Notes: generated by a model not told the origin, from the sequence alone. Shown: positions 39,157 through 47,116, numbered from the stretch's first letter. The stretch: 64,000 nucleotides of DNA from Deltaproteobacteria bacterium (GCA_018668695.1 JABJBS010000308.1:1430-65429); one strand, 5' to 3'. Made by a program: numbers and translations.

Positions 39157-39912
39157 GTGAGTGACGACGCTACTTTTAATCGATGGTTTGAAAAACTAGT
39201 GGAGCGCCAAGAGCGAAACCTGACCTTTCAGGAGATTCGCAAAGCCCTTCAGGCTCTTTCAAGCGTCTACGTTCAACGTAGAGACAAGCTTAAAAAGGGC
39301 GCCGCTCTGGATACAGCCGGAAAAAGAGCTGCATTTGCAGTATTCTACGGTCCATTGCACTACCTTTTTATGCAGGCAGTTCTCCAAGAGCTAGACAGTA
39401 ACCCAGGCTCGATTAAAAACATTGTGGATCTTGGGTGCGGAACGGGTGTCGGATCTGCCGCCTGGAGCCTTCTCGGAGGCGGCAAGGCCACTGTCGAGGG
39501 CATCGACCTCAATAAATGGGCGACGGACGAATGCCGCATGACTTACCATGCATTCGGGCTCAAAGGGCAAACCCGAACCGGCAATCTCATGGGAGCCAAG
39601 CTACCTGGGGCCGGTGGTGCAGTGGTGGCAGCCTACGCTATCAACGAACTCTCCGATGGGGCCCGTGAGGAAATGCTCACAAAGCTCCTTAAAGCTGGCT
39701 CCAACGGGGCAAAGATCCTCATCGTCGAGCCTATTGCAACGACACCCGTCCCGTGGTGGCAAGGCTGGGCCGAAGCATTTGAAGCCCAGGGCGGTAAAAG
39801 CCAAACCTGGAAAATCCCAGTAGACCTTCCCGATCACCTCAAGCTACTGGACAAAGCCAGCCGAATGAATCATCAAGTGCTCAAAGGTCGCACCCTTTGG
39901 CTTAATCGCTGA
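39157..39912 (+). CDS. Class I SAM-dependent methyltransferase (possibly Rsm22-like)
   Basis: SAM motif I is IVDLGCGTGVGSAAW. I chose GTG 39157 because AGGAG (39146-39150) lies 6 nt upstream. The listed ORF begins at TTG 39109. Confidence 0.65.
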   Translation: MSDDATFNRWFEKLVERQERNLTFQEIRKALQALSSVYVQRRDKLKKGAALDTAGKRAAFAVFYGPLHYLFMQAVLQELDSNPGSIKNIVDLGCGTGVGSAAWSLLGGGKATVEGIDLNKWATDECRMTYHAFGLKGQTRTGNLMGAKLPGAGGAVVAAYAINELSDGAREEMLTKLLKAGSNGAKILIVEPIATTPVPWWQGWAEAFEAQGGKSQTWKIPVDLPDHLKLLDKASRMNHQVLKGRTLWLNR

Positions 39913-39940
39913 TCCGATTTGCCGCACTGGAGAAGCTCCC

Positions 39941-40360
39941 ATGAATAAAATCAAAGAAGACATTCTCGCAGCGAACCACCACTTCTATGAGGTCTTCTGC
40001 TCAAAAGATTTGGATGCCATGAGAGATCTCTGGGCTCCAAACGAAAACATCGCTTGTGTCCACCCCGGCTGGGGCCTCCTTGAGGGCTGGAAAGATGTTA
40101 TGAGCAGCTGGGAAGGTATTTTTGAAAATCCCTCAACCCCAGGTATTCGTCCCGTAGGTGAAACCGTTTTTCAACAAGGCGGTTATGCATTTGTAGTCTG
40201 TGGAGAATCGGTCGAAGGCGCGGAACCAAGCCTTGTTGCAACGAATATATTTGAGGAATCTACTCAGGGTTGGAAACTTGTTCACCACCACGTCAGCCCT
40301 ATTCTTCAAATCACAGAGGATTTTGAAGAAGCTCAGGAACCGACGCAGCAATTACACTGA
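39941..40360 (+). CDS. SnoaL-like / NTF2-fold small protein
   Basis: 139 aa. ANHHFYEVFCSKDLDAMRDLWAPNENIACVHPGWGLLEGW matches the DUF4440/SnoaL-like pattern. This is a fold-level call only. Confidence 0.55.
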   Translation: MNKIKEDILAANHHFYEVFCSKDLDAMRDLWAPNENIACVHPGWGLLEGWKDVMSSWEGIFENPSTPGIRPVGETVFQQGGYAFVVCGESVEGAEPSLVATNIFEESTQGWKLVHHHVSPILQITEDFEEAQEPTQQLH

Positions 40361-40365
40361 ACCGG

Positions 40366-41739
40366 CTAAGGTCGGCGCAGGTGCCAGCCCTTAGGTTGCA
40401 AAAACGCGCGGATACCATCGTGGCCAAGCGTTGACCCAATTCCCGAGTCTTTCCAACCCGTCCAAGGTAAGTTCGAACTTACCCGGTCACAGCAATTCCA
40501 ATACGCACTGCCCGCTTCTAGCTTTGCCATCATTGCCCGCGCACGGTCCTCCGACTGACAAAAGACGCTCGCAGTTAATCCGTACCGGCTATCGTTCATT
40601 GCTGCGAGTGCCGCTTCATCGTCCGCTACTTTCTCAATCCCGATGATTGGACCGAAGCTCTCTTCACGCATCACATCCATCTGCCCATTTACCTCTGTAA
40701 GAACAGTAGGCTGGTAGTAATATCCAGTCCCATCAACTTTCGCTCCGCCGCATCTCAGCGTCGCCCCTTTAGCGAGCGCGTCGTCGACCTGCTTTTGAAT
40801 CACACCACGCTGTGCATCGCGCGTAAGGGGGCCAATAAAAATGCCGTCTTGCATTGGGTCACCCATTTTGAACGAAGCAACCTCTTCCAAAAATGCCTCT
40901 ACAAAAGCGTCGTAAAGTTTTTCGTGAACGTAAACGCGCTCAATCGAACAACAGCTCTGCCCCGTATTGTAGAAGACACCGCTGGCCACATTCTGTGCCG
41001 CTGATTTGGGGTCGACATCATCACACACGTAGGCAGGATCCTTGCCCCCCAGTTCAAGCTGAACCCGCATGAGTTTTTTACTGGCCGCCTGGGCAACTTT
41101 GACGCCCGTCGCATGGGAACCCGTAAAATAAACGCCGCCTAAATCCTGTTCCAGCAATGCCGCGCCAATCTCTCCGCCTCCAATTAAAGTTGGGAAGATC
41201 TCTTCGGGCACGCCGGCATCATAAAGCGCTTGAGCAATTCCAAGCCCCGTAAGCATCGCAAACTCAGAAGGTTTGTACATTACAGCGTTGCCCGTAAGAA
41301 GCGCCGGTAGAAACACATTCGCTCCCACAAAAAACGGATAGTTCCACGCTGAAATATTTCCAATCACGCCAAGCGGCTCATAGGTTAGAAGCTCTCTCAT
41401 GGAACCATTTTGATTCGAGTGAACTTGAACTTCATCAAGAAATGGCGGCACTTGTTTGAGAAAATATTGAACACGCGGCGCAACACCGCCTATTTCCCCT
41501 ATAGCCTGCCCCACTGGCTTTCCCATTTCGGAACTCAGCGTTTTTGCGAGGCCATCTTTGCGCTCTTGTAAGATGACACCAAAACGCTCAATCATCGCCA
41601 TGCGATCCTGCAACGGCCGCTCGGCCCACTGCTTTTGAGCAAGCCTCGCAACTTTGAACTTCTCGGCGACCGATTCGGGCGTATCTGTATCCAACTCGTC
41701 AATCACTGCCTCGGTGGCTGGATTAATGATTCGTAACAT
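40366..41739 (-). CDS. NAD(P)+-dependent aldehyde dehydrogenase (PuuC-position enzyme of the gamma-glutamyl operon)
   Basis: FTGSHATG, ELGGKDP and the catalytic Cys context NTGQSCCSIERVYV, plus EESFGP. Confidence 0.85.
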   Translation of the reverse strand: MLRIINPATEAVIDELDTDTPESVAEKFKVARLAQKQWAERPLQDRMAMIERFGVILQERKDGLAKTLSSEMGKPVGQAIGEIGGVAPRVQYFLKQVPPFLDEVQVHSNQNGSMRELLTYEPLGVIGNISAWNYPFFVGANVFLPALLTGNAVMYKPSEFAMLTGLGIAQALYDAGVPEEIFPTLIGGGEIGAALLEQDLGGVYFTGSHATGVKVAQAASKKLMRVQLELGGKDPAYVCDDVDPKSAAQNVASGVFYNTGQSCCSIERVYVHEKLYDAFVEAFLEEVASFKMGDPMQDGIFIGPLTRDAQRGVIQKQVDDALAKGATLRCGGAKVDGTGYYYQPTVLTEVNGQMDVMREESFGPIIGIEKVADDEAALAAMNDSRYGLTASVFCQSEDRARAMMAKLEAGSAYWNCCDRVSSNLPWTGWKDSGIGSTLGHDGIRAFLQPKGWHLRRP

Positions 41740-41753
41740 CTTTGTATTTCCTT

Positions 41754-42530
41754 TTAGCTTGTCTTTAACTTTTGTCGGGTGGCGTCGAGAAAGTGTTGCA
41801 TCAAAAGATCCGGGCTGAGTAATTCACTCGAACCCGCCTCGATAAATTCAGGGTGCCACTGAACCCCAAGCACATAGGAACCTGCGTTCTCCTTAGAACA
41901 AACAGCCTCTACAATACCATCCAACGGGCTATGAGCCTCTGGGCGAAGACTTGGAGCAATGTCCTTAATCGCCTGATGATGAATGCTGTTGATACGTCCG
42001 GGATGCGATCCACCATAAATCGTTTCTAAGGTCGAGTTCTTCTCGATTTTCACTTCATGATGATTGTGCTCGTAAACATCCCAATTGCGATGGACCAAAG
42101 CTCCGGGAACCTGAGTTGCAATGTCTTGATAAAGAGTACCGCCCAAAGCAACGTTTATCACTTGAGCGCCGCGGCAAACTCCCAAAATAGGAATATCCGC
42201 TGCAACGCACTCTTTTACCAACTCGATCTCATAGGCGTCACGAATCGGGTCACCGGGCCATTTCTCATCGATGGGTTCTTCACCGTAACTCTGCGGCGCA
42301 ACATCGGAACCACCGTGTAACAAAAGACCATCAAAATAAGAGAGGATTTCTTTAACGCCCAAGGAGCCATGAGCACGGGGAATCATAAGCGGCATTGCAC
42401 CGAGGCGCATCACCCATTGGTTCATCGACTCTTCAACGTAGACCAGGGTCTTGCCTTTAAAAAGTGGACGCTCAGGATCCGCATGATTAAAGCATGCAGA
42501 TATGCCTATTCTCAGACGACGCTCAGTCAT
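41754..42530 (-). CDS. Gamma-glutamyl amide hydrolase (class I glutamine amidotransferase / peptidase C26, PuuD-like)
   Basis: Start at ATG 42530 (MTERRLRIGIS...), overlapping the upstream TAA by 1 nt (TAATG). The nucleophile context is PILGVCRGAQVINVALGG. HHQAI and GVQWHPE are also present. Confidence 0.8.
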   Translation of the reverse strand: MTERRLRIGISACFNHADPERPLFKGKTLVYVEESMNQWVMRLGAMPLMIPRAHGSLGVKEILSYFDGLLLHGGSDVAPQSYGEEPIDEKWPGDPIRDAYEIELVKECVAADIPILGVCRGAQVINVALGGTLYQDIATQVPGALVHRNWDVYEHNHHEVKIEKNSTLETIYGGSHPGRINSIHHQAIKDIAPSLRPEAHSPLDGIVEAVCSKENAGSYVLGVQWHPEFIEAGSSELLSPDLLMQHFLDATRQKLKTS

Positions 42531-43732
42531 TACTCTAAAGCCAAGATGAACATATTTCGAAAATCGTCTTCCGTTACCGGACACGGATTAAGCTGATGAC
42601 ACGGGTCCTTCATGGCCACTGCCACAAGCTTTTCCACCATATCTTCAGTCACACCCAAATCACACAGCCCCTCAGGCATGCCGAGATCACCTTTTAGATG
42701 ACGAAGCCATACAGCAAATTGTCCGTCGGGAATCCCGGCAATCATTTCAATCTTGCGAAACTTTTCAGGAACTGCACGCTCGTTAAAGTCCATGCAAAAC
42801 GGAAGCATCATCGCGTTGGCAAGCCCGTGGTGCATATCGCAAACCGTGGAGAGCGCATGCGCACATGAATGGTTCACGCCCAGGCCTTTTTGAAAGGCAA
42901 CAGCTCCCATGAGAGCGGCCAAAAGCATTTGGCTTCGTGCCTTAGCGTGGGCCTCAAGCCCCATCTCGCCTTCTATATCGAGTTCATCCTCATCAAGCAT
43001 CGCGAAATCAACGCATTGCTTGAGGCTATCGTGAACCATCTGGATGCCTTCAAGAGCGATCCCGTCACACATAGGGTGATAACCCTTGGCCAAGTAAGCC
43101 TCCAGCAAGTGGGTCAGTGCATCCATCCCAGTAGCTGCCGTGATTTTAGCTGGTAAACCAAGGGTAAGTTCAGGATCTGCAAACACCTTGGACGGCATGA
43201 GACGCGGTGAAAAAATAATGCGTTTAACGCCAGTACCATCTTCACTGATCACACTGCTGCGTCCAACCTCAGAACCGGTGCCTGCTGTTGTGGGTACCGC
43301 CACAAGAAGTGGGATATGCTGATCAACGGGCGGAGCATCCGCGTTGCCATCTTCATAGTCGTAAAGATCTCCTGGATGGTGAGCCATCAGAGCAACAACT
43401 TTGGCCACATCGATCGGAGCACCGCCGCCAACAGCAATCACTGAATCACAGCCACCGGCCTTGTATGCCTCGACTCCCTTGATCACGTGAGTCTTTACCG
43501 GGTTACCGCCCATATCGGAGAAGATTTGCGGCTCTAAGCCGTCACCCTCAAGCAGAACCTTAAGGTCGTGCAGCATCGGTAATGGTGCAATCCCTTGATC
43601 TGTAACAATTAGGGGCCGCTTCATCCCGTTCTCTTTGAGGTAAGGCCCAATTTCTCGCCTTACTCCAAGCCCAAAGAGAATAGGCGTTGGAAAATTAAAT
43701 GTAACGGAATCCGGAAGGTCGAGCATGCTCAT
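42530..43732 (-). CDS. Iron-containing (group III) alcohol dehydrogenase
   Basis: GGGAPIDVAKV, VAVPTTAGTGSEV and the His cluster HSCAHALSTVCDMHHG are typical of Fe-ADH. Confidence 0.85.
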   Translation of the reverse strand: MSMLDLPDSVTFNFPTPILFGLGVRREIGPYLKENGMKRPLIVTDQGIAPLPMLHDLKVLLEGDGLEPQIFSDMGGNPVKTHVIKGVEAYKAGGCDSVIAVGGGAPIDVAKVVALMAHHPGDLYDYEDGNADAPPVDQHIPLLVAVPTTAGTGSEVGRSSVISEDGTGVKRIIFSPRLMPSKVFADPELTLGLPAKITAATGMDALTHLLEAYLAKGYHPMCDGIALEGIQMVHDSLKQCVDFAMLDEDELDIEGEMGLEAHAKARSQMLLAALMGAVAFQKGLGVNHSCAHALSTVCDMHHGLANAMMLPFCMDFNERAVPEKFRKIEMIAGIPDGQFAVWLRHLKGDLGMPEGLCDLGVTEDMVEKLVAVAMKDPCHQLNPCPVTEDDFRNMFILALE

Positions 43733-43743
43733 GGTGTGCCTCT

Positions 43744-45117
43744 TTAAATGATTTCGAAATAACGCTTAGTTTCCCAATCCGTGACGGCAGTTTGAAATTG
43801 ACGCCATTCCCAGATTCGAGATTGTGTGTAATGCGCTACAAACTTTTCGCCAAAAACCTCATTCGCAAGCTCGGACTGAGCCATCTGCTGTGCCGCATCG
43901 TAAAGATTACCAGGAAGCCTTACAGCATCCTTTACTTCATAGGCATTTCCAGAAACAGGCTCGCTCTCAATGTCTAAACCCTTCTCAATTCCCATCAGCC
44001 CGCTTCCAATGGCTGCTGCTAAAGCGAGATACGGGTTCACATCGGCACCAGGAACTCTTGTTTCAAGCCTCGTGGACTTAGAGCTTCCGGGTAACACGCG
44101 AAAAGAAGAAGTGCGGTTGTCGGAACCCCATGTGACCATTGTGGGTGCCCACATTCCTTCAACGAGTCGTTTGTAGCTGTTGATGGTGGGTGCAAAGCAC
44201 GGCAAAATATCTGGAGCCATTTTCATCTGACCCGCAAGGTAGTTGCGGAAAATCTTCGACATGCGCCGGTCCGCCCCTTCTTCGTAGAAAACGTTGGTCT
44301 TGTGCTCAAGGTCCCACAAGCTTTGATGAACGTGCCCGCTGCAACCAGGTAGGTCGGGGCTAATTTTCGCCATAAAGGTTGGGATAATACCGAACTCGCC
44401 AGCGATTTCTTTGGTAGCTGCCTTAAACAAAACTGCCCGATCCGCTGCCTCCAGCGCATCGGAATACATAATCGCAGCTTCAAATACACCAGGCCCCGTC
44501 TCGGTATGAAGACCTTCAACCGGCACGTCAAAGGCTAAGAGTTCGTCCATGAGCGCTGAAAAATAATCTGAGTTTTGCGAAGCACGCAGAAGAGAATAAC
44601 CAAACATCCCTGGGGTCAAAGGTTTTAAATTGCGAAAACCTTTTTCATGAGCCGACTCGGGAGTTTCTTTGAAGTTAAAAAACTCAAACTCCAGAGAGCA
44701 CATGGGTGAATAACCCATACCCTCGGCTTTTTTGAGGACGCGCTTTAATACCTGACGAGGGCAAACCTCGAGCCCATTGCCTTCGGCATCTTCAAAGTCA
44801 GCTAGAAAAAATGGCACATGGTCATCCCACGGAACCGTTCGATAAGTATTGAGATCGATGCGAGCTTCGGCATCTGGGTATCCCGTATGCCATCCGGTAT
44901 AACTCACGTTATCGTAACAGACATCGGCACAGTCCCAGCCGAAGACGACATTGCAAAATCCGAATCCACCTTCCACTGCCGAGAGAAATTTATCCGTATG
45001 GATATACTTCCCTCGCATCACACCATCGATGTCTGTAATCGCCAGCTTGACCTTTTTTGAACCTGAATTCCGAACCCGTTCAATGATATCTTTGGGGTCC
45101 AACTTCTCTTTTGTCAT
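43744..45117 (-). CDS. Glutamine synthetase-like gamma-glutamyl-amine ligase (PuuA/GlnA3-4-like)
   Basis: The GS catalytic-domain motifs are in order: LEFEFFNF, HTETGPGVFE, GCSGHVHQSLW, NSYKRL, SDNRTSSFRV and RLETRVPGADVNPYL. Confidence 0.8.
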   Translation of the reverse strand: MTKEKLDPKDIIERVRNSGSKKVKLAITDIDGVMRGKYIHTDKFLSAVEGGFGFCNVVFGWDCADVCYDNVSYTGWHTGYPDAEARIDLNTYRTVPWDDHVPFFLADFEDAEGNGLEVCPRQVLKRVLKKAEGMGYSPMCSLEFEFFNFKETPESAHEKGFRNLKPLTPGMFGYSLLRASQNSDYFSALMDELLAFDVPVEGLHTETGPGVFEAAIMYSDALEAADRAVLFKAATKEIAGEFGIIPTFMAKISPDLPGCSGHVHQSLWDLEHKTNVFYEEGADRRMSKIFRNYLAGQMKMAPDILPCFAPTINSYKRLVEGMWAPTMVTWGSDNRTSSFRVLPGSSKSTRLETRVPGADVNPYLALAAAIGSGLMGIEKGLDIESEPVSGNAYEVKDAVRLPGNLYDAAQQMAQSELANEVFGEKFVAHYTQSRIWEWRQFQTAVTDWETKRYFEII

Positions 45118-45291
45118 GGATGAGGGCTTTCCGCTTAATTAGCTATCGAGTCGGTGTTCCGGGCGCCACTCACCCGGGTTACCACGCGGCACCAAAATTA
45201 TCACGGCCCCATGGTTGCTTCAATCAGAGCGGGAAGGTCATCTAAATTGTGTAATAAAATAAGCGAGATAGCTCACAAGAAACATGCAGTT

Positions 45292-46224
45292 TTATGAACG
45301 GCTCTTACGCTGAGCCCCAAGTCCCTTAAGAAACTTGGCTGCCACAGAAATTCCCTTGGCATCATGTTGTTTCCAAATCAGCTCGTAGGCACGGTCCATC
45401 ACCGGGCTTTGTGTATTGCTTTTCCCGTCAACAGCATACCTTCGAAAGAGCAGTGTGAAAGTCTCCTCCGAGAATTCCCAATCTTCGTCCGTATCTTTTA
45501 AAGTTGGGATATCTATATCCTCAAGTTCGTCGTTGAGCATCCGGACCATCCATTCCCTACGGCGCTCAAACTTCTCAAAACGCATCACAAGCTTTGAGAG
45601 CAAATAGGCCAGTATCTTTTTAGCCCGCGGATCTGACTCTACTCGAGATTTCAATTCCATAGCGCTAAGATTTGCCTGCTCTAACTCCGCAACCAAGGGC
45701 TCTGATTTACTCCGACATTTCTCAATGGTTTCCTCTCCGCAAAGCATCATCATGACAGCTTGCCAAGCTGGAACCATTGTCCATGGCAGAGTCTCGGCGA
45801 CCAGCTCCGAATCATGACTCATTAAATCGGCGAATGGGGCGACCAAAATCCACGCAAAGCCCGAAAGCTCTAGCCCCCGGCTTTTGTTCTCTTGTGCCGC
45901 GGGGGAAGACGCAGGACTTGGAACCGGTGCCTTGGCCTCGACTCGGAGCTTTTCAACAATGTTTTGAATGTCGCCCTTTGAATTTTGAATAGAGCGCGTT
46001 TGAACTTCTTGATAGGTCTCAGCGGGCCCTATCCCGTGCTCTTGAATCTCAGCTTCGGCCCAAAGTTTTCGAATCACTGAAGCTATTTCGTTCGGGCCAA
46101 GAGGTACACCACCTCGGCGCACTTGAGCGAGCATCGCTGTTTGGACAATTTCAAGGACATCATGAACTGACTTAACGGTTTCAACTGCACCGCCTTCCAG
46201 TTGCTTACGCTTACGACTCGCCAT
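45292..46224 (-). CDS. Hypothetical protein
   Basis: 310-aa ORF with coding-like composition and no family motif I recognise. It lies 100 nt downstream of the lipoprotein gene on the same strand. Confidence 0.5.
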   Translation of the reverse strand: MASRKRKQLEGGAVETVKSVHDVLEIVQTAMLAQVRRGGVPLGPNEIASVIRKLWAEAEIQEHGIGPAETYQEVQTRSIQNSKGDIQNIVEKLRVEAKAPVPSPASSPAAQENKSRGLELSGFAWILVAPFADLMSHDSELVAETLPWTMVPAWQAVMMMLCGEETIEKCRSKSEPLVAELEQANLSAMELKSRVESDPRAKKILAYLLSKLVMRFEKFERRREWMVRMLNDELEDIDIPTLKDTDEDWEFSEETFTLLFRRYAVDGKSNTQSPVMDRAYELIWKQHDAKGISVAAKFLKGLGAQRKSRS

Positions 46225-46324
46225 CCTCAGATTCCTAAAGGTTAAGACCGAAGCTACATCATAACCAATGCGGCCGTGTCGTCCAAATCCAATAGGGTTG
46301 CCAGTGGACTGGCTAATGAATCAA

Positions 46325-47116
46325 TCAAGGAACCTCGACCAGGTAAGAGGTGCTCCAAGAACCATCATCTCGCTCATGAACCAGCCATAGAGTTTCTTCA
46401 GGATACGCCCTGATAGAGCCATACCAAACCAACCCATCTTCGCTTTCAAGTGGTTCTATAATATCTAAAGCGAGGTTTAAGATAATTAACCGACCGTTAC
46501 CAAGAGGCTCATCAAGAGTGACTTGTATTAAGACAAACTCACAATCTTCTTCTTCAGCCGGGTCAAAGTCTTCATCGAAGGTATTATGGGACCAATCGCC
46601 CTGCTCATCTTGCTCATCTTCCCATTCACCCGGATCATTCTCCTCAACAAAAGGCTCACACTCATCAAAGTAGTCCATGGCATAAACGAGCTGCACCCCA
46701 TTATCCTCGGTAGACGGAAACTCTTGAATATCTTCGGTAGCAAGCGTGATGGATTCCTGGGAATCAACGCCAACCGGTGTAAGAGAGAGAGTATCAGCCT
46801 TAAGCGCCATCAACTTAAGTTCGAAACTACCGCCCTCTTGAACTGTTGCAGTTTGGGACTCACCGCTTCGAATGTTCGTCGCTTTTACTTCCGCAATGTT
46901 CGTAGCCGCGCCGGGCATACCCACAATGCGAATTTCAACAGGTGTTGTAGTATTGAGAGGCTCTGTGGACGTTGTATGAATCAAAGATTCCGTTAGGTAT
47001 CCCGTGACCTCAATACTCGTTGAATCGGTTCCGGTTAAGGGCGAGTCTTTGCCGCATCCAGCCAGCACCATGTTCAGCACCAAGAAAAGTCCAAGTGCTT
47101 GTGTTAATATTCTCAT
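46325..47116 (-). CDS. Hypothetical lipoprotein with an acidic C-terminal half
   Basis: Signal peptide plus lipobox LNMVLAGC, then a beta-rich N-terminal half and an Asp/Glu-rich segment (EDEQDEQGDWSHNTFDEDFDPAEEED). Its ATG overlaps the upstream TGA (ATGA at 47113-47116). Confidence 0.6.
   Translation of the reverse strand: MRILTQALGLFLVLNMVLAGCGKDSPLTGTDSTSIEVTGYLTESLIHTTSTEPLNTTTPVEIRIVGMPGAATNIAEVKATNIRSGESQTATVQEGGSFELKLMALKADTLSLTPVGVDSQESITLATEDIQEFPSTEDNGVQLVYAMDYFDECEPFVEENDPGEWEDEQDEQGDWSHNTFDEDFDPAEEEDCEFVLIQVTLDEPLGNGRLIILNLALDIIEPLESEDGLVWYGSIRAYPEETLWLVHERDDGSWSTSYLVEVP

What the first reader, a model, noticed from the sequence alone, without database searches (positions are those of the whole stretch)
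40366..45117. Tight four-gene gamma-glutamylation operon with an Fe-alcohol dehydrogenase in place of the PuuB oxidase: candidate amino-alcohol (e.g. ethanolamine) catabolic route
The gene order on the minus strand is GS-like ligase, Fe-ADH, C26 gamma-glutamyl hydrolase, aldehyde dehydrogenase. The spacers are 11 nt, a 1-nt overlap (TAATG) and 14 nt.

The E. coli Puu pathway uses PuuA ligase, PuuB FAD oxidase, PuuC ALDH and PuuD hydrolase. Here the oxidase is replaced by an alcohol dehydrogenase. This implies the gamma-glutamylated intermediate carries a hydroxyl rather than a second amine.

The predicted chemistry is therefore: amino alcohol to gamma-glutamyl-amino alcohol, to aldehyde, to acid, to Glu plus amino acid. 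For ethanolamine the final amino acid would be glycine.

Comparable gamma-glutamyl-ethanolamide routes have been proposed in a few bacteria (Streptomyces GlnA4; a Chromohalobacter pathway). The substrate here is unknown, and no transporter or regulator sits in the operon.
Basis: inference. Interest (0 to 1): 0.6.

Follow-up and report, generated by a model that had tools for sequence, protein, structure and literature searches.

The report
Variant gamma-glutamyl ethanolamine breakdown operon
Four tightly packed genes in a marine Myxococcota/Bdellovibrio-like bacterium most likely turn ethanolamine into glycine through glutamate-tagged intermediates, a pathway already known from other bacteria but built here from a different enzyme lineage with a different last enzyme.

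Summary
Four minus-strand genes encode a GS-like ligase, an Fe-ADH, a C26 hydrolase and an ALDH, with 11-nt, -1-nt and 14-nt junctions. All catalytic residues are intact. The same gene order recurs in MAGs of at least five phyla.

An Fe-ADH in this slot is already the rule in the known gamma-glutamyl-ethanolamide pathway (Chromohalobacter, Phaeobacter eto operon, Streptomyces GlnA4). What differs here:
- The hydrolase is C26 rather than the FGase family.
- The enzymes are only 37-39% identical to an eto-type operon.
- The ligase belongs to a separate clade with its own pocket motif.

New evidence for ethanolamine as substrate:
- In a genome of the same phylum, an Eat ethanolamine permease that passes its curated cut-off sits 13 nt upstream of orthologous ligase, Fe-ADH and ALDH genes.
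- Flexithrix has the same permease-ligase pairing.
- Among 26 permease-bearing genomes of the phylum, 7 have this ligase, 16 have EutB and none has both.
- The window's genome has no EutB, FGase or PuuB.

The substrate has not been tested biochemically. This scan has flagged the same kind of operon on other DNA several times. Verdict: a new variant of a known kind, of moderate interest.

The parts
43744..45117 (-). GS-like gamma-glutamyl-amine ligase (457 aa). Predicted to carry out ATP-dependent ligation of glutamate's gamma-carboxyl to ethanolamine.
   Evidence: PF00120, 327 bits. Below the cut-offs of GlnA, type III GS and gamma-glutamylputrescine synthetase. Metal, ATP and glutamate residues are all kept, but Y179->F172, N264->P257 and E327->W323. 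The clade motif (L/I)(T/S)PGMFG is present. Single copy in the genome.
42530..43732 (-). Iron-type alcohol dehydrogenase (400 aa). Predicted gamma-glutamyl-ethanolamide dehydrogenase.
   Evidence: PF00465 plus PF25137. 39% identical to the Fe-ADH of an eto-type operon, with the same NCBIfam profile. GGGAxxD motif and candidate Asp/His metal ligands are conserved with the eto and Legionella enzymes. No paralogue in the genome.
41754..42530 (-). C26 (class I amidotransferase-fold) gamma-glutamyl hydrolase (258 aa). Predicted to release glutamate plus glycine from gamma-glutamylglycine.
   Evidence: PF07722, 211 bits. 32% identical to E. coli PuuD and below the PuuD equivalog cut-off (108 vs 266 bits). 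Catalytic Cys119 (GVCRG) and His226/Glu228 (QWHPE) are present. Best solved relatives are 3fij and 6vtv (PuuD).
40366..41739 (-). NAD(P)-dependent aldehyde dehydrogenase (457 aa). Predicted gamma-glutamyl-aminoacetaldehyde dehydrogenase.
   Evidence: PF00171, 437 bits. 37% identical to the eto-type ALDH and 28% to PuuC. Catalytic Glu229 (ELGGK) and Cys263 (GQSC) are present.
45195..45223 (-). Promoter-like element (TTGAAG, 17 nt, TAATTT) upstream of the ligase gene. Inferred only.
   Evidence: It lies in the best-conserved upstream block in an alignment with the 92% and 84% relatives. The consensus scan found no canonical sigma-70 site. RNA-library contigs reach upstream only to 45177.
45263..45276 (-). 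Terminator-like hairpin followed by a T-run, just after the stop of the upstream 310-aa ORF. It separates that gene from the operon.
   Evidence: This is a consensus match only.

Best explanation
The four genes form one operon for B12-independent, microcompartment-independent catabolism of ethanolamine by gamma-glutamylation.

Proposed steps:
1. The GS-like ligase uses ATP to attach glutamate's gamma-carboxyl to the amino group of ethanolamine.
2. The Fe-ADH oxidises the free hydroxyl of gamma-glutamyl-ethanolamide to the aldehyde.
3. The ALDH oxidises the aldehyde to gamma-glutamylglycine.
4. The C26 hydrolase releases glutamate (recycled) and glycine, which can enter the glycine cleavage system.

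The amine stays masked, so no free aminoacetaldehyde or acetaldehyde is formed.

This is the known gamma-glutamyl-ethanolamide route built from a separate enzyme lineage. A PuuD-type C26 hydrolase stands where the described versions use an FGase-family amidohydrolase.

Ethanolamine would come from phosphatidylethanolamine head groups. The genome has three GDPD phosphodiesterases. No dedicated permease was found in this genome.

What is shown: gene families, intact catalytic residues, operon conservation, permease linkage in orthologous operons, and the distribution pattern. What is inferred: the identity of the substrate and of every intermediate.
For: 1. Families and junctions are as described.
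2. The published pathway has the same first three families (PMC9397018 Table 2; PMC10132767, read). An eto-type operon (L037: RpiR, FGase, TRAP, GS, ALDH, Fe-ADH) was fetched for comparison.
3. The window's Fe-ADH and ALDH give the same NCBIfam ranking as the eto-type enzymes.
4. The ligase keeps the GS catalytic core but has lost ammonium-site residues. The genome has three GlnII-type GS genes for ammonium assimilation.
5. In genome G020, from the same phylum, the genes run Eat permease (TIGR00908, 425 bits against a 381.75 cut-off), 13 nt, ligase (59% identical), 11 nt, Fe-ADH (51%), 12 nt, ALDH (52%).
6. In Flexithrix dorotheae and a Flammeovirgaceae MAG, an Eat permease (449 bits) lies directly upstream of the orthologous ligase (60%).
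7. The pocket motif PGMFG, with Pro and Trp, is invariant in all 15 clade members aligned, including Flexithrix. G020 has it too, as do 117 of the 120 best homologues.
8. Of 26 Eat-positive genomes among 201 of the phylum, 7 have the ligase without EutB, 16 have EutB without the ligase, none has both and 3 have neither. Outside one family (f17) the ligase and EutB never co-occur.
9. EutB is absent from G020, Flexithrix, G003 and G121.
10. The own genome (98.6% complete) has no EutB, FGase, PuuB or eto-type binding protein. It does have GDPD genes and the glycine cleavage P-protein.
11. Contigs from four marine metatranscriptome libraries (three studies), 100% identical to the window, cover all four genes. 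They bridge the GS/Fe-ADH and Fe-ADH/C26 junctions.
Against: - No enzyme of this lineage has been assayed.
- The ligase is only 37% identical to an eto-type ligase and falls in a different clade (quick tree).
- At the aligned Y179, N264 and E327 positions it has F, P and W, where the eto type has E, V and F. This pocket is more hydrophobic and closer to IpuC and to ligases that sit next to aminotransferases. Specificity cannot be transferred by homology.
- The window's own genome has no Eat permease above the cut-off and no transporter in the operon.
- Eat-family specificity rests largely on annotation.
- In family f17, 29 genomes have both a ligase homologue (50-52% identical) and an EutB-like gene.
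- Genome counts are not phylogenetically independent.
- RNA-library contigs can derive from contaminating DNA.
Confidence: 0.65

Rival explanations
1. The pathway logic is the same, but the substrate is another primary amino alcohol, or a broad range of them. Candidates are 3-aminopropanol giving beta-alanine, 4-aminobutanol giving GABA, 5-aminopentanol, and serinol or alaninol. Ethanolamine would be a side substrate or not a substrate at all.
For: - The ligase pocket positions are hydrophobic (F172, P257, W323) and unlike the eto type (E, V, F).
- The ligase is nearer to IpuC (45%) than to eto/GlnA4-like ligases (37-38%).
- The C26 hydrolase's characterised relative PuuD acts on gamma-Glu-GABA.
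- There is no ethanolamine transporter in this genome.
- GS-like ligases are often promiscuous (PMC13740247).
Against: - Two independent lineages place an Eat-type ethanolamine permease next to the orthologous ligase. One of them is a tight operon with Fe-ADH and ALDH.
- Among Eat-positive genomes the ligase and EutB are complementary.
- The alternative amino alcohols are far rarer in nature than ethanolamine from phospholipids (general knowledge).
Confidence: 0.2
2. A Puu-like polyamine (putrescine or cadaverine) pathway whose oxidase or aminotransferase is encoded elsewhere. The Fe-ADH would have an unrelated or accessory role.
For: - GS-like ligase, C26 hydrolase and ALDH are three of the four Puu enzyme families.
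- Sister-clade ligases sit next to class III aminotransferases and polyamine-type ABC transporters.
- The genome has several class III aminotransferase genes (PuuE-like hits).
Against: - There is no PuuB homologue in the 98.6%-complete genome.
- The ligase-Fe-ADH pair is the invariant core in nearly every related locus whose sequence extends past the ligase. The Flexithrix and Cytophaga loci and two genomes of the phylum survey are exceptions.
- Identities to PuuA, PuuD and PuuC are only 28-32%, all far below the equivalog cut-offs.
Confidence: 0.05
3. An IpuC-like alkylamine pathway (ethylamine or isopropylamine). The gamma-glutamyl alkylamide would first be hydroxylated and then oxidised by the ADH and ALDH.
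For: The ligase is 45% identical to the annotated IpuC of Paenarthrobacter aurescens pTC2. The pocket is hydrophobic.
Against: No P450, ferredoxin or other monooxygenase gene lies in or next to the operon in the window or in any related locus examined.
Confidence: 0.04
4. The ligase is a true glutamine synthetase for ammonium assimilation, and the clustering with the other three genes is incidental.
For: It is the only GS type I-fold gene in the genome, and the catalytic core is intact.
Against: - It scores 229 bits against the 429-bit cut-off of TIGR00653.
- The E327 flap, Y179 and N264 are replaced.
- Three GlnII-type genes are present.
- The four-gene order is conserved across phyla.
Confidence: 0.02

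Closest known systems
Gamma-glutamyl-ethanolamide (ethanolamine gamma-glutamylation) pathway. Known from the Chromohalobacter salexigens Csal_0678/0679 region, the Phaeobacter sp. MED193 eto operon (MED193_10026-10056) and Streptomyces coelicolor SCO1611-1615 with GlnA4.
   Same: - Same four-step logic.
- Same families for three of the four steps: PF00120 ligase, PF00465 Fe-ADH and PF00171 ALDH.
- The Fe-ADH and ALDH give the same NCBIfam profile as those of an eto-type operon.
- An ethanolamine transporter is linked in orthologous operons.
   Different: - The hydrolase is C26 (PF07722), not FGase (PF05013). No FGase gene is found in the genome.
- Ligase, Fe-ADH and ALDH are only 37%, 39% and 37% identical.
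- The ligase lies in a separate clade with different pocket residues.
- The operon has no TRAP system, permease or RpiR/GntR regulator.
E. coli Puu pathway (PuuA, PuuB, PuuC, PuuD) for putrescine.
   Same: It follows the protect-oxidise-deprotect logic. It has a GS-like ligase, an ALDH and a C26 gamma-glutamyl hydrolase with the same Cys-His-Glu triad.
   Different: - There is no FAD oxidase; an alcohol dehydrogenase stands in its place.
- Identities are 29% (PuuA), 32% (PuuD) and 28% (PuuC), all far below the equivalog cut-offs.
- The substrate therefore carries a hydroxyl rather than a second amine.
Ipu isopropylamine pathway (IpuC gamma-glutamylisopropylamide synthetase, as annotated in Paenarthrobacter aurescens TC1 pTC2).
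   Same: The ligase is 45% identical. A class I amidotransferase-type hydrolase and an ALDH lie nearby.
   Different: The Ipu cluster needs a P450/ferredoxin hydroxylase system and uses an SDR. None is present here.
Uncharacterised proteobacterial clusters: Legionella lytica plasmid pLlyPCM2298_1 (GS, ALDH, Fe-ADH, amidotransferase) and Burkholderia vietnamiensis G4 pBVIE01 (RpiR, Na+/solute symporter, GS, ALDH, amidotransferase).
   Same: These have the closest annotated ligases (51% and 47% identical). They share the family set of GS, ALDH, Fe-ADH and a class I amidotransferase-fold hydrolase.
   Different: - The gene order differs.
- The hydrolase is of the PRK05665 amidotransferase type rather than C26/PuuD-like.
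- The pocket loop differs (TPDNFG or TPTSCG against TPGMFG).
- These clusters are also uncharacterised.

Membership tests
Gamma-glutamyl-ethanolamide pathway (eto / GlnA4 type) | GS-like ligase with the GS catalytic core but an altered ammonium site | tested here: met
   All metal, ATP and glutamate residues are kept. Y179->F, N264->P and E327->W. Below the GlnA cut-off.
Gamma-glutamyl-ethanolamide pathway (eto / GlnA4 type) | Iron-type alcohol dehydrogenase (PF00465) and aldehyde dehydrogenase (PF00171) co-encoded with the ligase | tested here: met
   Catalytic motifs are intact.
Gamma-glutamyl-ethanolamide pathway (eto / GlnA4 type) | FGase-family (PF05013) gamma-glutamylglycine amidohydrolase | tested here: not met
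   The operon has a C26 hydrolase instead. No PF05013 match anywhere in the genome.
Gamma-glutamyl-ethanolamide pathway (eto / GlnA4 type) | Ligase belongs to the clade of the characterised ethanolamine ligases | tested here: not met
   37-38% identity. The eto-type and Streptomyces-plasmid ligases form a separate clade in a quick ML tree. No authentic GlnA4 or Csal_0679 sequence was available as letters. 5dm3 scored 260 bits.
Gamma-glutamyl-ethanolamide pathway (eto / GlnA4 type) | Genetic linkage to an ethanolamine transporter | tested here: inconclusive
   Not present in the window or its genome. Present in orthologous operons or loci of G020 and Flexithrix.
Gamma-glutamyl-ethanolamide pathway (eto / GlnA4 type) | Ligase makes gamma-glutamyl-ethanolamide, and the pathway is required for growth on ethanolamine | not testable with these tools
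   Needs enzyme assays or genetics.
Puu putrescine pathway | PuuA-type gamma-glutamylputrescine synthetase (NF045547, cut-off 650) | tested here: not met
   212 bits. 29% identical to E. coli PuuA.
Puu putrescine pathway | PuuB-type FAD oxidase | tested here: not met
   No tblastn hit to E. coli PuuB in the genome at E<=1e-5.
Puu putrescine pathway | PuuD gamma-Glu-GABA hydrolase (PRK11366, cut-off 266) | tested here: not met
   108 bits. The Pfam family and catalytic triad are the same, but it is not an equivalog.
Glutamine synthetase type I (GlnA) | TIGR00653 equivalog score and ammonium-site residues Y179, N264 and E327 | tested here: not met
   229 bits against a 429-bit cut-off. The residues are replaced.
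Ipu isopropylamine pathway | P450/ferredoxin hydroxylase system next to the ligase | tested here: not met
   None in the window's flanks or in the related loci.

The most novel reading that the evidence does not exclude
This ligase clade, marked by the PGMFG / Pro / Trp pocket, together with its Fe-ADH partner, defines a second, independently assembled and very widespread gamma-glutamylation route for ethanolamine. It would be found in Myxococcota (46 of 54 genomes of one family), Bdellovibrionota, Leptospiraceae, Chlamydiales and Bacteroidota. In lipid-consuming and predatory bacteria it would replace EutBC, and it would contribute to marine phosphatidylethanolamine turnover. Alternatively, its hydrophobic pocket may mean that the true substrate is a different, so far unconsidered amino alcohol.
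Probability: 0.55. Interest if true: 0.5.

Novelty: new variant of a known kind. Interest (0 to 1): 0.35.

Why it matters
Ethanolamine from phosphatidylethanolamine is one of the most abundant nitrogen-containing breakdown products available to bacteria that feed on other cells. The textbook route (EutBC) needs B12.

If this operon is a second lineage of the gamma-glutamylation route, two things follow:
- B12-independent ethanolamine use would be much more widespread than the few studied cases suggest. It would include predatory Myxococcota and Bdellovibrionota, Leptospiraceae, environmental Chlamydiales and marine Bacteroidota.
- Genome annotation ('glutamine synthetase', 'alcohol dehydrogenase') would be hiding it.

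It would also show that the final hydrolase slot is filled interchangeably (FGase, C26, or not linked). This is a clean case of non-orthologous displacement.

The biochemistry itself is not new.

Tried and rejected
- Rfam scan of 39800-46400 at E<=1 gave no hit, so there is no known riboswitch in the 5' leader.
- The sigma-70 consensus scan found nothing.
- I looked for a conserved transporter or regulator in the flanks of about 15 related loci. None is conserved; the flanks differ in every lineage.
- Contexts of the two most divergent representatives (P0122, P0123) lie on contigs too short to be informative.
- The NCBIfam labels '4-hydroxybutyrate dehydrogenase' and 'succinic semialdehyde dehydrogenase' looked like hints of a C4 substrate. 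I rejected this because the eto-type enzymes give the same top labels.
- Vetting et al. 2015 (PMC4310620) is not held in the library. Its content is cited only through PMC10132767, PMC6529630 and PMC9397018.
- Literature searches found no description of a C26-containing version. The P. putida RB-TnSeq preprint concerns EutBC only.
- The careful ML tree did not finish in the time allowed, so only the quick tree is used.
- That 5dm3 is Csal_0679 is from memory and was not verified. The source of PDB entry 11zs could not be determined.
- Parts of the stretch without cover in the RNA-library contigs were not interpreted.
- No structure prediction or complex prediction was run, because the families are unambiguous and a model would not settle the substrate.


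Full report
**Observation**

Four minus-strand ORFs occupy 40366-45117.
- 43744-45117: GS-like protein, 457 aa, PF00120.
- 42530-43732: iron-type alcohol dehydrogenase, 400 aa, PF00465 plus PF25137.
- 41754-42530: C26 peptidase, 258 aa from the ATG of the TAATG overlap, PF07722.
- 40366-41739: aldehyde dehydrogenase, 457 aa, PF00171.

The ALDH stop is 5 nt from the stop of a convergent SnoaL-like gene. Upstream there is a 174-nt spacer whose far end carries a terminator-like hairpin belonging to the preceding gene. None of the four proteins reaches an NCBIfam equivalog cut-off. All four genes are single-copy in the genome.

**The genes are intact**

Aligned with E. coli GlnA, the ligase keeps E129, E131, E212, E220, H269, H271, R321, R339, R344, E357 and R359. 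It has F for Y179, P for N264 and W for the E327 flap. That is the pattern of gamma-glutamyl-amine ligases, not of an ammonium-fixing GS.

The genome has three GlnII-type GS genes (450-467 bits against a 500-bit cut-off) and no GSIII. Ammonium assimilation therefore does not depend on this gene.

The other three enzymes keep their catalytic residues:
- C26 protein: Cys119 (GVCRG) and His226/Glu228 (QWHPE).
- ALDH: Glu229 (ELGGK) and Cys263 (GQSC).
- Fe-ADH: the glycine-rich NAD motif and candidate Asp/His metal ligands, conserved with eto-type and Legionella homologues.

**The operon is conserved, not a chance arrangement**

The ligase has thousands of homologues. The best 120 are 61-92% identical and come from MAGs labelled Myxococcota, Bdellovibrionota, Leptospiraceae and Polyangiales.

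In fetched loci, the same four genes in the same order occur under the labels Myxococcota, Polyangiaceae, Leptospiraceae, Oligoflexales, Pseudobdellovibrionaceae, Bdellovibrionaceae and an 84% relative. Partial versions occur in Chlamydiales and Acidimicrobiales.

The ligase-Fe-ADH pair is the usual core. The C26 gene is missing from some loci (L010, L013, L048, L079, L081, L083). The ALDH is missing from others (L047, L080, L019).

Flanking genes differ in every lineage, and no transporter or regulator is conserved.

In a sample of 201 genomes of the window's GTDB phylum, 76 have a ligase homologue at E<=1e-120. These include 46 of 54 genomes in a family of 9-12-Mb genomes. There the homologue is 50-52% identical and sits next to an Fe-ADH and a PuuC-like ALDH. 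One of the 76 (G197) is flagged as unpublished; no individual claim here rests on it.

**What is already known**

The right comparison is the gamma-glutamyl-ethanolamide pathway. Its published parts list is PF00120 ligase, PF00465 Fe-ADH, PF00171 ALDH and PF05013 FGase-family hydrolase. The sources are Table 2 of PMC9397018, the Phaeobacter eto operon with proteomic induction on phosphatidylethanolamine in PMC10132767, and GlnA4 genetics and biochemistry in PMC6529630. So the Fe-ADH is not the novelty.

I fetched an eto-type operon from a Rhodobacteraceae plasmid (RpiR, FGase, TRAP, GS, ALDH, Fe-ADH). The window's proteins compare as follows:

| Reference | Identity |
|---|---|
| eto-type operon | ligase 37%, Fe-ADH 39%, ALDH 37% |
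| E. coli PuuA / PuuD / PuuC | 29% / 32% / 28% |
| annotated IpuC | ligase 45% |
| uncharacterised Legionella, Burkholderia, Pseudorhizobium ligases | 47-51% |

The eto-type Fe-ADH and ALDH give the same top NCBIfam labels as the window's proteins. Those labels (4-hydroxybutyrate DH, succinic semialdehyde DH) therefore say nothing about substrate.

A quick ML tree places the window's ligase in a clade of 15 sequences (SH-aLRT 84). This clade is sister to the Legionella/Burkholderia group (99). The eto-type and a Streptomyces-plasmid ligase form a separate clade, and IpuC and PuuA fall outside.

The window's clade has an invariant loop (L/I)(T/S)PGMFG with Pro257 and Trp323. The eto type has Glu, Val and Phe at the aligned positions.

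**Evidence on the substrate**

Three lines point to ethanolamine.

1. Linkage in the same phylum. In genome G020 (99% complete, 2.0 Mb), a permease that passes the curated cut-off of the ethanolamine permease equivalog TIGR00908 (425 bits against 381.75) lies 13 nt upstream of the ligase orthologue (59% identical, same pocket motif). Orthologues of the Fe-ADH (51%) and ALDH (52%) follow after 11 nt and 12 nt.

2. Linkage in another phylum. In Flexithrix dorotheae and a Flammeovirgaceae MAG (Bacteroidota), an Eat permease (449 bits) lies directly upstream of the ligase orthologue (60%). Fe-ADH and C26 orthologues are elsewhere in the Flexithrix genome.

3. Distribution. Among 26 genomes of the phylum sample with an Eat permease, 7 have the ligase and no EutB, 16 have EutB and no ligase, 3 have neither and none has both. 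Outside one family the ligase and EutB never co-occur. Inside that family 29 genomes have both, with a lower-scoring, longer EutB-like frame. These counts are not phylogenetically independent.

G020, Flexithrix, G003 and G121 all lack EutB.

The window's own genome (98.6% complete) has none of the following:
- EutB
- FGase
- a PuuB homologue
- an eto-type binding protein
- an Eat permease above the cut-off

It does have three GDPD phosphodiesterases and the glycine cleavage P-protein, a plausible source and sink.

**Expression**

The stretch occurs in seawater and marine metagenomes from many studies.

Contigs from four marine metatranscriptome libraries (three studies), identical to the window, cover parts of all four genes. 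They bridge the GS/Fe-ADH and Fe-ADH/C26 junctions, and none reaches upstream of 45177. This is consistent with an expressed polycistronic unit starting near a promoter-like TTGAAG-17-TAATTT element, which is conserved in close relatives. However, contigs from RNA libraries can include DNA and cannot show transcript ends.

**Caveats and rivals**

Nothing in this lineage has been assayed. The pocket residues differ from those of the eto-type ligase and are more hydrophobic. Another small amino alcohol, or broad specificity, therefore remains a serious alternative (about 0.2). Other rivals:
- A polyamine pathway is unlikely because there is no oxidase and the Fe-ADH is the usual partner of the ligase.
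- An Ipu-like alkylamine route lacks its hydroxylase.
- A true GS role is contradicted by the altered active site.

**Verdict**

The proposed chemistry is supported and is now tied to ethanolamine by comparative evidence. The pathway type is already known.

What is new is the variant: a separate ligase, Fe-ADH and ALDH lineage, a C26 hydrolase in place of the FGase, and a wide distribution in predatory and marine lineages.

The held literature contains no description of this variant. Earlier notes of this scan flagged the same kind of operon on other DNA several times.

Noticed in passing
own genome: G000 C267:5394-6143, C103:6749-7159, C348:1205-1678 (loci L002-L004): The genome has three paralogous GlnII-type (eukaryote-like type II) glutamine synthetase genes of about 350 aa. 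Each scores just under the NCBIfam GlnII cut-off (450-467 bits against 500). It has no type I GlnA and no GSIII. This is an unusual GS complement.
   Followed up: partly
protein P0121 (4424 aa), P0161 (2757 aa), P0228 (1356 aa): Giant predicted proteins carry 3-6 separate stretches similar to the GS-like ligase (29-32% identical). They may be multi-domain fusions or mis-assemblies. Not examined.
   Followed up: no
window 45118-45194 (minus strand leader): A leader of about 70-80 nt lies between the promoter-like element and the ligase start. It contains a GC-rich hairpin (CCGGG...CCCGG). Relatives have a hairpin at the same place but with different sequence. There is no Rfam match.
   Followed up: partly
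L015:11364-12179 and L016:10975-11790; own genome C91:9254-10045: In Flexithrix and Flammeovirgaceae, a MOSC-domain protein follows the ligase directly. The window's genome has a 43% identical homologue elsewhere. Any role in the pathway is unknown.
   Followed up: no
L011:1114-2904, L024:7834-9645, L025:76-1887: In the Bdellovibrio-type loci, a protein of about 600 aa with a cyclic-nucleotide-binding domain is transcribed divergently from the operon. It is a candidate lineage-specific regulator.
   Followed up: no
L048 (ENA contig k141_3990222): Here the ligase, Fe-ADH and ALDH genes sit among lipid-metabolism genes: patatin-like phospholipase, FGGY kinase, PlsC-type acyltransferase and PAP2 phosphatase. 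This fits a phospholipid head-group role.
   Followed up: no
phylum sample, family f17 (e.g. G151:C1:3360882-3362189): The 9-12-Mb genomes carry EutB-like frames of 750-850 aa. These score about 450-470 bits, against about 670-730 bits for ordinary EutB. They may be fused or divergent ammonia-lyases, and they co-occur with the ligase homologue.
   Followed up: no
window 39941-40360 (+) and 40366 (-): The SnoaL-like gene and the ALDH gene converge with only 5 nt between their stop codons. No terminator-like structure lies between them. The SnoaL, methyltransferase, mtnA and aldolase neighbours are syntenic in the 84% relative (L022).
   Followed up: partly
L029, L030, L031 (plasmids of Rhizobium leguminosarum, Rhodobacteraceae M382, Streptomyces viridifaciens): Related GS-like ligases are combined with other second enzymes: a GMC oxidoreductase, a class III aminotransferase or an SDR. 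They are also combined with either FGase or PuuD-like hydrolases. Gamma-glutamylation pathways appear to be assembled modularly.
   Followed up: partly
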